Positions 12,001-18,000 of a DNA stretch of 64,000 nucleotides are shown one piece after another. The DNA is from Escherichia coli (lineage in GTDB: Bacteria > Pseudomonadota > Gammaproteobacteria > Enterobacterales > Enterobacteriaceae), in NCBI RefSeq assembly GCF_011045215.1, contig NZ_CP049202.1. The stretch is one strand, 5' to 3'. Position numbers: made by a program. Numbering within the stretch: position 1 is the first letter of the stretch; each line of letters opens with the position of its first letter.

Positions 12001-15000
12001 TTCTTTATTAAATACTATGAGAAGCATAAAAAATATACTAGTTACAAATAAATGTATCAATAATGTGTAGAATGTTGTATCATATCGAATACTCTACAAC
12101 TTCATGACGTGGATAATACCCATTATTCAGAATAAACGGTAATACCAACTCTAAATTTACATTATCCACTCCCTGTATATTCAGCAGTTCCAAATAAAGG
12201 TAATATTACGATTCCTTTACTCAACTTAGCATGTTTTTTTGACATCTTACCTATCTTTATACTTGAGAACTGAAGAAATTTTGTAATAAACATCGTTCAA
12301 ACTGCTTCCATAGGTATTCAAACTTTTTAAGGATCGCCATAAGTGACATTTTCCCAAATTATAATTTTCTTTACGATAAACTGTATGCGAACTTAAAGCT
12401 TATTTCCAACGGGATTTTTATGAGTATATTTTTCCTTTAGTACAGTACACTATGAAAAGGCGTACTTATTTTGCAGATGAAAATCCTGGTCCGGAAAGTA
12501 CAGCTAACGTCACCAAATAGCAAATTTTTCGCCTTCTCAGGTAACCTCGAATGTAAAACGTAGACAGCGAAGTAGCCAAACCAAAGCCAAATGATGAACA
12601 TGCTCCCCACGAAATAGAAGTATTTGTGAGGACCGATAGCCGGTTGGATTTGTTCTTATATTTCCAGACACCTGTTATCACTTACCCCATGACTGGTCCG
12701 CTGCTGCAGATATTCCCGTAGCAAGCGATAACTCAGCGCATCGTTATAGTGCTCGAACGCCTCCGTAAGGTTCTTTACTATCGTTAACCCATCAGTTTGG
12801 GCATGATATATAGTCACGTTTTATCGTTTTCACGAAGCTCTCTGCTATTCCGTTACTCTCTGAACTCCGCACCGCCGTGTTCTTCGATTCAAACCACAAT
12901 ATTCGGACGAACTGGCATGTTTCATTAGCTCGGTAGTATGACCCATTATCTGTCAGCCACTCTACTAGCGATGTCGGAAGACCTTTGCCGAAGCGGTGTT
13001 CCGCCGCACCCAGCATATCCATTACTTCCCCCGTATACTCATTGATGAAGTGAATCTGAATAAGATGCTTTGCGATATCAACGCCAACCGGTGTATATTT
13101 CATTTTGTGGAGTCTCCAGTCTGAGGGAACTTTATGTATCCCGTATTGGGCACTATGCTGCCGGAAATCTGCGAGGCTCCACACCTTCCTGTTTTTTCCT
13201 TCATCCATCACAGTGCACCTCACTTAATAGGGTGGGATGTGTTCATTACATTTTTTGAACGCAGCAGCTATCACACGGGTGGTCATCCCTTTGGCATACA
13301 ACGAGAGGATCTGGTTATCTATCCCAGTAATACGGGGCTGATTTTTCTTTACCAGTTGTGGTTCGAAGGTACCGTAACGATCGCGCGGAGTACGCACCTC
13401 CAGTGGACCGTCGCCTGTGATAACAGTCTTTGTGGAATAACCGTTGCGGGAGTTAGCTCCCGGTCTGGACTGATTTTTCTCATATCCAGGGGTTCTGCGC
13501 CCATTTCCTCCAAAAGTCTCACTCTTAGCATAAAAACCATTATTTATCATGTTGTTAACCGTCATATTCGGACTCAATATCTCCGATATCACTTAGTGGG
13601 TCTACTCCCTCCAAAAGACTGAACCGCCCCGGGTTTCCTGGAGAGTGTTTTATCTGTGAACTCAGGCTGCCAGATCATCGTTTCCGATGGAAGCATAATA
13701 AGCTTTTTCTGCTTCTGCCGGTGGGATATGGCCCAGCCTTTCCAGCAATCGTCGATTGTTATACCAGTCCACCCACGTGAGTGTGGACAGCTCCACTTCT
13801 GTCCGGTTTTTCCAGCGCTTACGGTGTATTACCTCCGCTTTGTAAAGGCCATTGATGCTCTCCGCCATCGCGTTGTCATACGAGTCACCAGTACTCCCTG
13901 TTGATGCCAGTAAGCCGGCTTCCTTAAGCCGCTGCGTGTAGGCCAGCGATACATACTGAGAACCTTTATCACTGTGGTGGATTGTGCCGGACGGCCGACG
14001 GGCCCACAACGCCTGCTCCAGTGCATCCGGCACGAATGCCGTTTCCATGGATGATGAGACCCGCCATCCCACGATGTATCCGGCGAACACATCAATGATG
14101 AACGCCACATAAACGAAGCCCTGCCATGTGCTTACCCAGGTAAAATCAGCCACCCACAACTGGTCAGGACGTTCTGCCACGAACTGACGGTTTACGCGGT
14201 CGCATGCGGCAACGGCTTTCCGGCTGACGGTAGTGCGGACCTTTTTACCCCGGAGAACACCGGCAAGTCCCATAACCGCCATGAGACGTGCCACAGTGCA
14301 TCTGGCCACTCTGATACCTTCCCGTAACAACTGACGCCAGACTTTACGCACACCGTATACCTGGTGATTTTCATCGTATACGCGCTGTATCTCTTTCTTC
14401 AGCCAGTCATCGCGCTGCGCACGGGCACTGCGTTTATCAGGATGATGTCGCTGTTGCTGACAGTGGTAATACGTTGACGGGGCAATATGCAGTTCGCTGC
14501 ATACCGGTCCGACCCCGTACTGCTCACGCAGCTTATCCAGCAGTGGCATCATTTTTTCCAGAGGCGGTCGAACTCCGCCTTCGCAAAATAAGCGGAAGCC
14601 TGGCGAAGGATATCGTTACTGCGGCGCAGTTCACGATTTTCACGTTCCAGCTCTTTCAGACGCTGACGTTCAGCGGTGGTGAGCCCACCATCACCGCCCC
14701 CGGTATCCCGCTCATGCTGGCGTACCCAGACACGCAGAGTCTCCGGCGTACAGCCAATTTTTGGAGCAATGGAACAAATTGCCGCCCACTGTGAATCATA
14801 CTCATCCTGACTTTCCAGAACCATACGAATCGCTCGCTGACGGACTTCGGGGGAAAAACGAGTATTTTTAGTCATCCTGTTTACCTCTTTCTCAGGGAGT
14901 TTAGTCTCCAGGATTCCCGGGACGGTTCAATGATTGTCAGTCGCTAATGACTTTGGTTGTATTTCACTGGTATTGTTATATAACAAGTCAAATGCAAAAT

Positions 15001-18000
15001 GACCTTCATATTCATTTGGAGAAATTACCACAGTTGATAATGGCACATGATTAGATACCAGTGTCATCGCAGAACCCCCTTTCCCCTTTCTGAAATACTT
15101 GGCAGAATAACGGGCTTTAAATGTATTTATTCTGCAAGTGTGCTTCTGCCCATCAACACTTCCAAATGGAGAATTTTCATTTATCGTCCAGTATTTATAT
15201 ACAGAAAGATTTGCAATTACATCAGATATTACTGTGTTGGCCATTCCTGTTGTTTCTGGACGAATGAATTTGTCATTCACATCACGTAGTATTCCAATAC
15301 TACGGTCTGATGCAGATGCCATTCTGTGAACACCATAATTTGCGCCATTACCAAATATACAAGCAAGAAGGTCATTATAGTTAGCTTCAAGATTATTTTT
15401 CCTAGATGATATGGCATTAAACACAGACAAAAAATTCGTCTCATTGTTTACATACTTCATTACGTCAACTATCCCGATATTTTTATCTGATTGTAAATCG
15501 GATTATCGATGCTGGTCTTCTATTTTTTACTGGCCAGACTCCACTGTAATCTGTTGGAGTGTGGTTGTTTTTTCACAAACTCATTAACATCTGAGTTTAT
15601 TCCAATGGTTATACGAGCCAGTTTATCGCTAAAGGTATTCTCCAGGTCATTAAGAGTCTGCGTTATTGGTGTGATAAGTCGTTCAAGGCCTGTTTTCTCT
15701 ATCAAAATCGATTTATTCTTATCCCAGTAACTTCGTTCTATGAGATCATCTTCCAGTCTCTTGTTTTGTTCACTCTCCGCAGCATAAAAGACACCGTTTT
15801 CCAGATGGTTAGATACCCTGCTGTACATATGAAATTCGAATCGTTGAGTGTTAATTTCTCCTTTTTTTACAATGTAATTTTTCTCGGATGGATGAATTAC
15901 CCTCAGATCCTTAGCATCCAGCTTTCCTTTTCCTCTGAGATCATCCTTGGCAGCAGTAATTTGCTGGCCAATAACAGACTTCTCGTTGTCATATACTATT
16001 ATCTATAGTCAGAAAAAGCTTTCGGATTGAATTGGCGATCTTAAGGTGATGGCTGTCAATATACTACCATTGATATTCAATTACATCGATTTTATTTTTG
16101 TCAAAAAATTCACTCACAAGATGCATATCATCTTTCGATATAAGTGAAAAAACCTTTTCACGAACATATCCAAACGGGATGCTGTCTTCAATGTTACTAT
16201 CAACGAAGAAGTTAAATATTTTACTCGCAAACTTAAGCTTTTTATTTATTAGATCTATTTCCTCTGTTGCCCGAGCTTTTGCAAACAAAACTGAAGCGTC
16301 TTTATGTTTTTTTACTAAATATCTGAAGGCCGTGATTATTTTATCATTTATCTCTCTGTATCTGAAGTACAAGTAGCAGCACAAATAAAGTATTCCTTGC
16401 CATTTAGGGTGTCGCTTAAGTCTGAATGTTGTACTGTGTTTTACGATAGTTGCATAGTACTCCATGTTTCCCTGGGATATACCTAATGAATTAATTATAT
16501 CTTTTATTTCATAGTAAATACTACTTATCACATTGTGTGTTCTTAATTCATTTTCTATTTCTGATGCTGAGAAGTCCCTCGTGCTATAATTACATCCATC
16601 ATCATGGATGATGGATGTAATCTTTTGTGCAGTGGCAGGATAAATTCTCTTTGACAAAATATTAATTGTCCTTTTCCTTTCAAAGTTTAAAGCATCTGAA
16701 ACGAGGTTCTGGACAGTACTGTATCCAGGAAGAGCTATACGCCGCTGTCCTAAAAAAGCAAGTAATTCATCAAAAATATATTTGGGTTCCATACATATAG
16801 TAGCAACATCATTCAGACGTTCACTTAACTCATTTTTTATAGATGGGGTGAGTTGTTCAAATCCTAGAGTAGAAAGCATTCGTTTAACAAGGCGGTGCTT
16901 TGTACTTTTAGGTATGTTTAAATTGAGATTAGTACTTTCGTTTTTATAATATGTCTGGATAATATATTTCACATCCCTTTTTACGTCTTTTAATGTAAAT
17001 TCAGGAATCACAGGTTTATATCTGAAATACCCTGTTATTAATATCAGATACACCCTGCTTTCTATATTTATTATTTTATCAATTTCTCTTTTAAGGCTGA
17101 TATCCAGCGAAAAAAACTCATCCCTTTCAACAGGATTAAAAGAGGGGACTTGATATAATTCATTTATTTCACTTTTTGTTAATATACTAATTCTTTTCTT
17201 GTACTTCTGCATACATTTACCCAAATGCTAAATATTTTTAAATATGGCGAGTATTAAATATTAAGATATCTGATACCTGTCTAAAACAGCATAAAAGCAG
17301 GTTTCAAAAATCGTATTTTGTACATTATGATACCATGCAGTGTCGAAAACGATAAGTGAGACTAAAAATGGCGTTATTGGGGTATGCACGGGTATCAACT
17401 AGTCATCAGAAGCTAACACATCAAATCTCGGAGCTAAAAAATGCCGGGGTACGGGAAGATCGTATTTTTACGGATATGATGACTGGCGCAACTGATGAAC
17501 GGGAAGGACTACAGCGGTTGTTGGCCCGTGCAGAGAAAGACGACGTAATCATCTGTACAAAAATGGACCGACTGGGGCGTAACACTGCTGACATGATTCG
17601 TGTGGTTGATAGCTGTTACAAAAAGGGGATCGCCATCCGGTTCCTGGAGAACGGTCTCAGTACAGAAGGGACAATGGGCAAAATGGTTATCCAAATCCTT
17701 GCTGCTGTAGCTGAAGCGGAACGTGAGCGTATTCTGGAGCGGACAAACGACGGAAGAATAGCGGCACTTGCCGCAGGCGTAAAATTTGGCAGGAAGAAGC
17801 ATCCACGAACGCCTACAGCGTTGGAGCTTATATCACAGGGAGAATCTCTGGGCAGTGTGACAGAAAAAACAGGTATCTCTCGATCGACGTACTTCAGGTT
17901 AAAAAGAACAATAAAAAATGATGCTAAAATTGCAACGTTTTATAAATAAATTCAATTAATTACCTAAGCAAGGTGAGACTTTTAGAGGAAATGGGCGCGA

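What the first reader, a model, noticed from the sequence alone, without database searches (positions are those of the whole stretch)
14927..17949. AT-rich Tn3-family tnpA/tnpR remnant of apparently foreign origin
The tnpA pseudogene and res region are far more AT-rich than typical enterobacterial DNA and use A/T-rich codons, while the divergent resolvase is intact. This suggests a recently acquired Tn3-family element from a low-GC donor, truncated by IS629, whose passenger genes (if any) are lost.
Basis: partly seen in the sequence, partly recalled or inferred. Interest (0 to 1): 0.35.

Follow-up and report, generated by a model that had tools for sequence, protein, structure and literature searches.

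The report
Decayed cryptic Tn3-family transposon copy
The AT-rich stretch is a dead copy of a small, cargo-free Tn3-family transposon on an E. coli plasmid, broken by an IS629-like insertion and several mutations: an ordinary mobile-element remnant whose AT-richness belongs to its lineage rather than marking a recent arrival.

Summary
Window 13489-18006 holds one complete-ended copy of a 3.9-kb Tn3-family transposon. It consists only of tnpA, res and tnpR between GGGG-type terminal repeats.

- **Intact relatives.** Copies 98% identical sit on a few E. coli, E. albertii and Salmonella plasmids. Three relatives have perfect 5-bp target duplications. None carries passenger genes.
- **tnpA is dead.** It has two nonsense mutations, two frameshifts and a 21-bp deletion. 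A 1310-bp IS629-like insertion replaced about 668 bp, including the catalytic glutamate. The IS does not truncate the element: the last 21 tnpA codons and the terminal repeat lie on its far side (13489-13619).
- **res and tnpR look intact.** res (17250-17363) has the gamma-delta three-subsite geometry. TnpR is identical to the protein of intact copies.
- **Composition.** AT-richness is confined to tnpA (34% GC) and res (29%); tnpR is 47%, the window average.
- **Origin.** Relatives in E. coli, Citrobacter, Yersinia and Providencia keep tnpA at 34-36% GC whatever the host. About 135 mostly Escherichia plasmids carry variously truncated remnants.

This argues for a long-resident, intrinsically AT-rich lineage rather than a recent import. 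Interest is low.

The parts
13489..13522 (.). Terminal inverted repeat at the tnpA 3' end (GGGGTTCTGCGCCCATTTCC...). It is 34 nt and 88% complementary to the repeat at 17973-18006.
   Evidence: The first 133 nt of the intact reference element match window 13489-13621 at 100%.
13555..13619 (-). The last 21 codons and stop codon of tnpA (SLLEGVDPLSDIGDIESEYDG*), separated from the rest of the gene by the IS.
   Evidence: identical to the C-terminus of the intact 1012-aa TnpA.
13620..14929 (-). IS629-like IS3-family insertion sequence, 1310 bp, with orfA at 14549-14875 and orfB at 13662-14552. It replaces element positions about 132/134-801, a 668-670 bp deletion, and has no target duplication.
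   Evidence: HTH_Tnp_1 and rve domains. One search shows an end-to-end match at 97.9% to the IS in O157 Stx2a phages. The name IS629 comes from memory of its terminal sequence, not from an annotation.
14930..17212 (-). tnpA pseudogene, codons 1-768. Lesions: Q390* (16066), +1 frameshift (15999/16000), W571* (15521), -1 frameshift (about 15479-15485), and a 21-bp in-frame deletion of codons 206-212 (about 16594-16598). Codons 769-991, which include catalytic E896, are lost at the IS junction.
   Evidence: alignment to 8 other copies plus a Citrobacter outgroup. (NF033527 at 604 bits for the intact reference; DUF4158 and DDE_Tnp_Tn3 in the fragments). (alignment to Tn4430 TnpA gives D694, D766 and E896).
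17250..17363 (.). Predicted res site of 114 bp: site I 17250-17277 (28 bp), site II 17300-17333/4 (34-35 bp), site III 17339-17363 (25 bp). The half-site consensus is RGTaTCAaAtAT. Site III is next to tnpR.
   Evidence: It has the same 28-22-34-5-25 layout as the gamma-delta res read from Tn1000. A Yersinia relative carries a near-canonical gamma-delta site I in the aligned position. A sigma-70-like promoter at 17303-17331 inside site II points at tnpR, but such matches are not enriched over shuffles.
17368..17949 (+). tnpR, an intact 193-aa serine resolvase identical in protein sequence to that of intact copies (WP_001196199.1).
   Evidence: It is colinear with gamma-delta resolvase over residues 1-178 (E = 3e-51) and keeps the YARVSTS motif with Ser10. 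One search gives 49% identity.
17973..18006 (.). Terminal inverted repeat at the tnpR end (...GGAAATGGGCGCGAACCCCC), 23 bp after the tnpR stop.
13224..13488 (-). Left flank, not part of the element: an N-terminal fragment of an IS256-family (IS1414-like) transposase gene.
18007..18587 (+). Right flank, not part of the element: a C-terminal fragment of an ISKra4-family (ISEc51-like) transposase gene.
   Evidence: No record has the two flanks contiguous.

Best explanation
Window 13489-18006 is one defective copy of a 3.9-kb cryptic (cargo-free) Tn3-family transposon. An intact element consists of a 34-38 bp GGGG-type terminal repeat, a 1012-aa DDE transposase gene, a 114-bp gamma-delta-type res site, a divergent serine resolvase gene, and the second terminal repeat.

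**How an intact element should work (inferred from the family, not shown here).** TnpA should drive replicative paste-and-copy transposition through a cointegrate, making 5-bp target duplications. TnpR bound to the three res subsites should resolve the cointegrate by crossover in site I, and probably represses both genes.

**State of this copy.**
- Autonomous transposition is abolished. tnpA carries two nonsense mutations, two frameshifts and a 21-bp deletion.
- An IS629-like insertion removed about 668 bp, including the third catalytic residue.
- The ends abut fragments of two different ISs and there is no target duplication, so at least one flank was rearranged after insertion.
- Both terminal repeats, res and tnpR are still intact in sequence. 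In principle the remnant could be mobilised in trans, confer target immunity, or resolve plasmid multimers. This is inference.

**Base composition.** The low GC is a conserved property of the tnpA/res part of this Enterobacterales sublineage. It is not a mark of recent import.
For: **Anatomy**
- element positions 1-133 and 802-3900 of the intact copy map to 13489-13621 and 14930-18006, at 100% and 98.4% identity.
- Searches confirm the detached tnpA C-terminus.

**Family membership**
- NF033527 at 604 bits against a cut-off of 500, plus DUF4158, DDE_Tnp_Tn3 and Resolvase domains.
- TnpR matches gamma-delta resolvase at E = 3e-51.

**Mobility of the element type**
- perfect 5-bp duplications in three relatives (AATAA, ATGTT, TAATA) at different sites.
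- Two replicons of one strain each carry a copy.

**No cargo**
- the element is 3900 bp, with 23 bp between the tnpR stop and the terminal repeat.

**Lesions**
- 6 synonymous, 10 nonsynonymous and 2 nonsense derived changes, which looks near neutral.
- the catalytic triad is D694/D766/E896, and E896 lies in the deleted part.

**res**
-.

**Composition as a lineage trait**
- tnpA GC is 34.5% in E. coli, 35.8% in Citrobacter, 34.2% in Providencia and 34.3% in Yersinia, with GC3 near 0.30 in all four.
- the 60%-identical Aeromonas and Shewanella relatives are 47-49% GC.
- tnpA and tnpR diverge in step (87/86, 76/75 and 77/74% nucleotide identity).

**Long residence**
- 135 plasmids carry remnants with many different truncation points.
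- a fixed remnant sits in pAA plasmids.
Against:
- The window copy itself has no target duplication.
- Two lineage-specific substitutions fall in res half-sites (17255 in site I, 17345 in site III). res may therefore be impaired.
- tnpR GC3 does vary with host: 0.28 in Providencia against 0.44-0.50 in Enterobacteriaceae. A purely intrinsic-composition account does not explain this.
- Relatives are most numerous on low-GC Morganellaceae plasmids. An ultimate low-GC origin is therefore not excluded.
Confidence: 0.85

Rival explanations
1. One reading: a Tn3-family element recently acquired from a low-GC donor, truncated at one end by IS629, with its passenger genes lost.
For: - tnpA and res are 29-34% GC against 47% for the window.
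- The next-closest lineages (70-77% nucleotide identity) are mostly on Providencia and Proteus plasmids. In a Providencia copy both genes and the surrounding DNA are AT-rich: locus 36.6% GC, tnpR GC3 0.28.
- Near-complete copies are rare in E. coli, in 3 of 5426 complete genomes.
Against: - Both terminal repeats are present and the IS is internal.
- Intact copies carry no cargo.
- This copy carries five inactivating lesions besides the IS.
- Variously truncated remnants occur in 135 plasmids, 128 of them Escherichia.
- AT-rich tnpA persists across 13-28% nucleotide divergence in hosts of different GC.
Confidence: 0.2
2. A hybrid element: an AT-rich transposition module joined by recombination at res site I to a resolution module (res plus tnpR) taken from an enterobacterial plasmid of normal GC.
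For: - GC steps from 29-34% to 47% at res.
- Small Hafnia, Serratia and E. coli plasmids carry a stand-alone res-resolvase cassette that is 89-92% identical. Its homology begins exactly at the outer edge of site I and ends at the stop codon.
- Exchange at res site I is documented in this family (PMC7157771).
Against: - tnpA and tnpR divergences are congruent across the E. coli, Citrobacter and Providencia elements. The two modules have therefore travelled together.
- The homology boundary lies at the edge of site I, not at its centre.
- The Salmonella 'breakpoint' is an insertion of a second Tn3-family element, not a crossover.
Confidence: 0.1
3. A domesticated remnant: res and tnpR are kept intact by selection because they resolve multimers of the host plasmid, while the useless tnpA decays.
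For: - tnpR carries one synonymous change and no lesion. tnpA carries 18 substitutions and 4 small indels.
- Homologous cassettes serve as stand-alone plasmid genes elsewhere.
Against: - The rate difference is not significant (Fisher p = 0.15).
- From the tnpA lesion rate only about 1.3 lesions would be expected in 582 bp, so an intact ORF is unremarkable.
- Two derived substitutions hit res half-sites.
- The pAA remnant lost the catalytic serine, so the module is not generally preserved.
Confidence: 0.15

Closest known systems
Gamma-delta (Tn1000) and Tn3: the resolution module and gene layout
   Same: - tnpA and tnpR are divergent, with res between them and site III next to tnpR.
- TnpR is colinear with gamma-delta resolvase (49% identity, E = 3e-51, Ser10 present).
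- res is 114 bp with the same 28-22-34-5-25 subsite layout, and ends 4-5 bp before the tnpR ATG (layout rule from PMC7157771).
   Different: - TnpA is only about 24% identical to gamma-delta TnpA, and only over the DDE domain.
- There is no passenger ORF.
- tnpA is 34% GC against 48.5% in Tn1000.
- The half-site consensus is GTATCA rather than TGTCYG.
IS3000 / Tn3000 subgroup of the Tn3 family: the transposase
   Same: - IS3000 is the best match among elements that carry a specific name in annotation: 33.6% amino-acid identity over 99% of TnpA.
- A 58%-identical Shewanella relative has a Phd/ParE pair beside the resolvase gene. PMC7157771 describes this feature for the Tn3000-subgroup members TnSpu1 and TnAbapMCR4.3.
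   Different: - Identity is low and no phylogeny was built, so subgroup membership is inferred.
- This element has a gamma-delta-type divergent tnpR and no toxin-antitoxin pair.
Unnamed 3.9-kb elements on E. coli, E. albertii and Salmonella plasmids (for example NZ_CP045713.1 68743-72642, TnpA WP_086218989.1)
   Same: - It is the same element at 98.4% identity, with the same repeats, res and an identical TnpR.
- NZ_CP010123.1 (E. coli C5 plasmid A) carries this same decayed, IS-interrupted copy at 99.8%.
   Different: Those copies have an intact 1012-aa tnpA (5 of 8 copies in the 98% group) and no IS. Three relatives keep 5-bp target duplications.
[quoted passage not shown]
   Same: Like a TIME, the window copy keeps both terminal repeats but no working transposase, so it could only move in trans. 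The pAA plasmids hold a 630-bp repeat-to-repeat derivative.
   Different: - The window copy is 4.5 kb with recognisable genes.
- The pAA derivative sits at one and the same site (umuD-aggD) in every plasmid sampled and has no target duplication. There is therefore no sign of mobilisation.

Membership tests
Tn3-family transposon | A large (about 1000 aa) DDE transposase of the TnpA type | tested here: met
   The intact reference scores 604 bits on NF033527 (cut-off 500) and has DUF4158 and DDE_Tnp_Tn3 domains. The window fragments match the same domains. The DDE residues D694, D766 and E896 were placed by alignment with Tn4430 TnpA. The window copy itself is a pseudogene.
Tn3-family transposon | Terminal inverted repeats of about 38 bp beginning GGGG | tested here: met
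   13489-13522 and 17973-18006 are 34 nt and 88% complementary, and both begin GGGG.
Tn3-family transposon | A 5-bp target-site duplication | tested here: met
   Perfect duplications occur in three relatives at different sites (AATAA, ATGTT, TAATA). The window copy does not have one (ATCCA against ATAAT), and its flanks belong to two different ISs.
Tn3-family transposon | An internal resolution site with a cognate site-specific recombinase | tested here: met
   A serine resolvase and a three-subsite res predicted by comparison with gamma-delta.
Tn3-family transposon | Replicative transposition through a cointegrate, and target immunity | not testable with these tools
   This needs a mating-out or cointegrate assay.
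Gamma-delta/Tn3-type resolvase and res | A small serine recombinase with the catalytic Ser10 and a C-terminal helix-turn-helix, colinear with gamma-delta resolvase | tested here: met
   Residues 1-178 align to 1gdt at E = 3e-51, and the YARVSTS motif is conserved. Identity is 49%.
Gamma-delta/Tn3-type resolvase and res | res made of three dyad subsites (I, II, III) with site III nearest tnpR and crossover in site I | tested here: inconclusive
   The geometry and half-site dyads match gamma-delta res. Binding and the crossover point are predicted, not shown.
Tn3 subgroup (Tn3, Tn1000) by TnpA | TnpA clusters with Tn3 and Tn1000 TnpA | tested here: not met
   Only 23.7% identity over 418 aligned residues of the DDE domain to Tn1000 TnpA.
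IS3000/Tn3000 subgroup by TnpA | TnpA clusters with IS3000 and Tn5501-like TnpA | tested here: inconclusive
   IS3000 is the best specifically named hit (33.6% over the full length), ahead of Tn4401 at 28.9% and TnAs1/TnAs3 at about 22%. No tree with reference sequences was made.
IS629 (IS3 family) | A 1310-bp IS with two overlapping ORFs (HTH, then rve integrase core) and TG...CA ends, above 95% identical to reference IS629 | tested here: inconclusive
   The length, ORFs and domains fit. It is 97.9% identical end to end to the IS in O157 Stx2a phages. No annotated record or paper naming it was retrieved, so the name rests on memory.

The most novel reading that the evidence does not exclude
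The low GC of the transposase module could be a selected, lineage-conserved trait, for example to keep tnpA silenced by H-NS or poorly translated, rather than a donor signature. That would explain why tnpA GC3 stays near 0.30 in hosts of different GC while the linked tnpR drifts with the host. In parallel, the intact res-tnpR of decayed copies such as this one might be retained because it serves the plasmid as a multimer-resolution system.
Probability: 0.12. Interest if true: 0.35.

Novelty: new member of a known kind. Interest (0 to 1): 0.12.

Why it matters
It matters little beyond correct annotation.

- **Annotation of this region.** This IS-rich plasmid region contains a complete-ended but dead cryptic transposon. 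It is not a truncated cargo carrier, so no virulence or resistance genes were lost.
- **Element type.** The 3.9-kb element (tnpA, res and tnpR only) has clear evidence of recent mobility in E. coli, E. albertii and Citrobacter plasmids. It is annotated only generically and could be catalogued.
- **A general caution.** Low GC in a mobile-element gene need not mean recent import. Here it is conserved across hosts, and the pseudogene's own mutations push it further towards AT.
- **A mis-annotation.** The 'recombinase family protein' on pAA plasmids of enteroaggregative E. coli is a remnant of this element that lacks the catalytic serine.

Tried and rejected
1. **Inflated plasmid counts.** The first searches reported 2343 plasmids and 4244 E. 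coli records. That was an artefact of 54 nt of IS629 at the start of my query. Repeating with clean queries gave 135 plasmids for the tnpR-to-repeat part and about 11 for near-full tnpA.
2. **Hybrid origin by crossover at res site I.** This was suggested by the GC step and by BLAST breakpoints near 17243-17250. I rejected it for three reasons:
   - the Salmonella breakpoint is an insertion of a second, GC-rich Tn3-family element;
   - the plasmid-cassette boundary is the edge of site I, not its centre;
   - tnpA and tnpR diverge in step.
3. **The pAA 630-bp derivative as a mobile TIME.** Rejected. It sits at the same umuD-aggD site in every plasmid sampled and has no target duplication.
4. **D687N as a catalytic-site mutation.** Rejected. 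Alignment with Tn4430 places the first catalytic Asp at D694.
5. **Selection on tnpR.** The rate contrast with tnpA is not significant (p = 0.15).
6. **Empty-site search.** Joining the two flanks found no contiguous site.
7. **Literature searches.** Searches for the terminal repeat sequence, the protein accessions and the IS629 end sequence found nothing.
8. **Other dead ends.**
   - The F plasmid accession AP001918 is not in the collection, so Tn1000 was taken from OW967221.1 instead.
   - My first res coordinates were 2 bp off and were corrected.

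
Full report
**What is at the coordinates.** ORF listing and domain scans show three minus-strand fragments of one Tn3-family transposase gene: 16064-17224, 15520-15828 and 14927-15460. The first matches DUF4158 and the last matches DDE_Tnp_Tn3. A divergent 193-aa resolvase gene lies at 17368-17949. An IS3-family element with orfA and orfB lies immediately to the left.

**Base composition.** Composition profiles confirm the AT-richness, but only for part of the unit. The tnpA fragment is 34.4% GC and the intergenic region 29%. tnpR is 46.6%, equal to the window mean of 47.0% (SD 7.4 points over 500-bp windows). The tnpA GC3 of 0.29-0.31 is about two SD below the mean of 35 long ORFs in the window (0.49 ± 0.105). 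Three other ORFs are equally low, so this plasmid region has several AT-rich islands.

**The real extent of the element.**
- BLAST found copies 98.3-98.4% identical on plasmids of E. coli, E. albertii and Salmonella, and an 86% copy in Citrobacter, all with an uninterrupted gene annotated as a Tn3 family transposase.
- In NZ_CP045713.1 the element is bounded by 34-nt GGGG-type inverted repeats and is exactly 3900 bp: tnpA (1012 aa), 156 bp of intergenic DNA, tnpR, then 23 bp to the repeat.
- Mapping this reference onto the window gives two segments. Positions 802-3900 match 14930-18006 at 98.4%. Positions 1-133 match 13489-13621 at 100%.
- The window therefore holds both terminal repeats (13489-13522 and 17973-18006). 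It also holds the last 21 codons of tnpA on the far side of the IS.
- The IS is 1310 bp (13620-14929, TG...CA ends). It replaces about 668-670 bp of tnpA and has no duplication of its own. This points to an IS-associated adjacent deletion, or to recombination between two IS copies.
- It is 97.9% identical end to end to the IS found in O157 Stx2a phages. I call it IS629-like from memory of its ends; no annotation or paper naming it was retrieved.

**How dead is tnpA.** I aligned the window copy with eight other copies and the Citrobacter outgroup. The lineage-specific lesions are:
- Q390* at 16066;
- a +1 frameshift at 15999/16000;
- W571* at 15521;
- a -1 frameshift near 15479-15485, which is absent from the otherwise near-identical NZ_CP010123.1;
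- an in-frame 21-bp deletion of codons 206-212;
- the IS-linked loss of codons 769-991.

Alignment with the solved Tn4430 transposase places the DDE triad at D694, D766 and E896, so E896 is deleted. The derived substitutions are 6 synonymous, 10 nonsynonymous and 2 nonsense. About 11 of them are G/C-to-A/T transitions, which is the pattern expected of neutral decay.

**The resolution module.**
- TnpR is colinear with gamma-delta and Tn3 resolvases (E = 3e-51 and 2e-49) and keeps the catalytic-serine motif. It is 49% identical to gamma-delta resolvase.
- Its protein sequence is identical to that of intact copies. There is one synonymous change.
- I compared the intergenic DNA with the gamma-delta res read from a Tn1000 copy and with relatives. 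A Yersinia relative has a near-canonical gamma-delta site I in the aligned position.
- This gives a 114-bp res at 17250-17363: site I of 28 bp, a 22-bp spacer, site II of 34-35 bp, a 4-5 bp spacer, and site III of 25 bp. All six half-sites fit RGTaTCAaAtAT.
- This is the layout described for Tn3, with site III next to tnpR and recombination in site I (PMC7157771).
- A sigma-70-like promoter inside site II faces tnpR. Such matches are not enriched over shuffles.
- Two window-lineage substitutions fall in half-sites (17255 and 17345), so function is plausible but unproven.

**Is it a real mobile element, and did it carry cargo.** Three relatives at unrelated sites have perfect 5-bp duplications: AATAA, ATGTT and TAATA. 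One strain carries a copy on each of two plasmids. The element type has therefore moved recently by Tn3-type transposition. All full copies are 3.9 kb with no room for passengers, so nothing was lost from this one. The window copy has no duplication. Its left end abuts an IS256/IS1414 fragment and its right end an ISKra4/ISEc51 fragment, and no plasmid has these flanks contiguous. A later rearrangement replaced at least one flank.

**Origin and composition.**
- TnpA homologues form a gammaproteobacterial series:
  - Salmonella 90% and E. coli 86%;
  - Providencia 80% and Yersinia 74-79%;
  - Aeromonas, Xenorhabdus, Shewanella, Vibrio and Photobacterium at 54-60%.
- The best specifically named relative is IS3000, at only 33.6%.
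- Within Enterobacterales the tnpA gene stays at 34-36% GC, with GC3 near 0.30, in E. coli, Citrobacter, Yersinia and Providencia copies. The more distant Aeromonas and Shewanella genes are 47-49% GC.
- tnpA and tnpR diverge in parallel across these lineages. That argues against a recent module swap despite the GC step.
- Stand-alone res-resolvase cassettes 89-92% identical exist on small Hafnia, Serratia and E. coli plasmids. This shows that the resolution module is shared with plasmids, but the direction of transfer is unknown.
- Remnants of the tnpR end with many different truncation points occur in 135 plasmids, 128 of them Escherichia. They include a fixed repeat-to-repeat derivative in pAA plasmids.

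Together these results point to a long-resident, intrinsically AT-rich lineage. An ultimate origin in low-GC Enterobacterales such as Providencia or Proteus remains possible. Relatives are numerous there and the local composition matches.

**Context.** The window is 99.8% identical to E. coli C5 plasmid A (NZ_CP010123.1), a bovine IncF-type plasmid that carries the same interrupted copy.

**Verdict.** This is an ordinary decayed transposon. The element appears unnamed: annotation is only generic and no paper was found. ISfinder and TnCentral could not be queried.

Noticed in passing
L003 3964-4593 (NC_018654.1 pAA-09EL50, about 4870-5499); also L004, L022 and L023: pAA plasmids of enteroaggregative E. 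coli carry a roughly 630-bp derivative of this element. One terminal repeat is fused directly to tnpR codon 18, and the sequence then runs to the other repeat. It is annotated as a 188-aa 'recombinase family protein' whose start lies in the repeat and which lacks the catalytic Ser10. It always sits between umuD and aggD and has no target duplication, so it is an inherited remnant, not a mobile miniature element.
   Followed up: partly
L006 5001-5709 (NZ_CP084665.1, Hafnia plasmid); similar in Serratia and E. coli small plasmids: A stand-alone res-plus-resolvase cassette is 89-92% identical to the transposon's module, without tnpA or terminal repeats. Homology begins exactly at the outer edge of res site I and ends at the stop codon.
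   Followed up: partly
L005 about 6300-7725 (CP053580.1, Salmonella plasmid): An 84%-identical relative of tnpA is followed, about 2 bp outside res site I, by a sequence that looks like a Tn3-family terminal repeat (GGGTCGGTTCCGGC...CCCTAAG). After it come a GC-rich resolvase and Tn3-family transposase fragments. This is a second Tn3-family element inserted beside res.
   Followed up: partly
window 14930-17212: About 11 of the 18 substitutions derived in this pseudogene are G/C-to-A/T transitions, against 5 A/T-to-G/C changes. Neutral decay in E. coli is making this already AT-rich gene more AT-rich, not bringing it towards host GC.
   Followed up: partly
window 15479, 16175, 17237: These are the only three differences from NZ_CP010123.1 within the element. 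Two are single-base indels, which could be real or could be sequencing errors in one of the two assemblies. One of them is the second tnpA frameshift.
   Followed up: no
window 18644-20174: A group II intron reverse-transcriptase gene is split into three ORFs (RVT_1 hits in two of them). It lies directly after the ISKra4/ISEc51 fragment and looks like a frameshifted intron remnant.
   Followed up: no
window 20199-20722: A second, partial IS629-like orfB (C-terminal 143 aa) lies on the plus strand, inverted relative to the full copy at 13620-14929. The pair could mediate inversion of the 5-kb segment that includes the transposon.
   Followed up: no
window 20949-21698 and 7180-8085: Two AraC-family regulator genes sit in very AT-rich islands (22-33% GC, GC3 0.24-0.29). 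Their best matches are YdeO/HilD-like and Rob-like, both below the curated cut-offs. They lie near a 1175-aa trimeric autotransporter adhesin gene (8385-11912). They are as AT-rich as tnpA or more so.
   Followed up: partly
L018 1101-6036 (Shewanella algae contig): A 58%-identical TnpA relative has a Phd/YefM-ParE toxin-antitoxin pair between the resolvase gene and tnpA. This is the arrangement reported for the Tn3000-subgroup members TnSpu1 and TnAbapMCR4.3.
   Followed up: no
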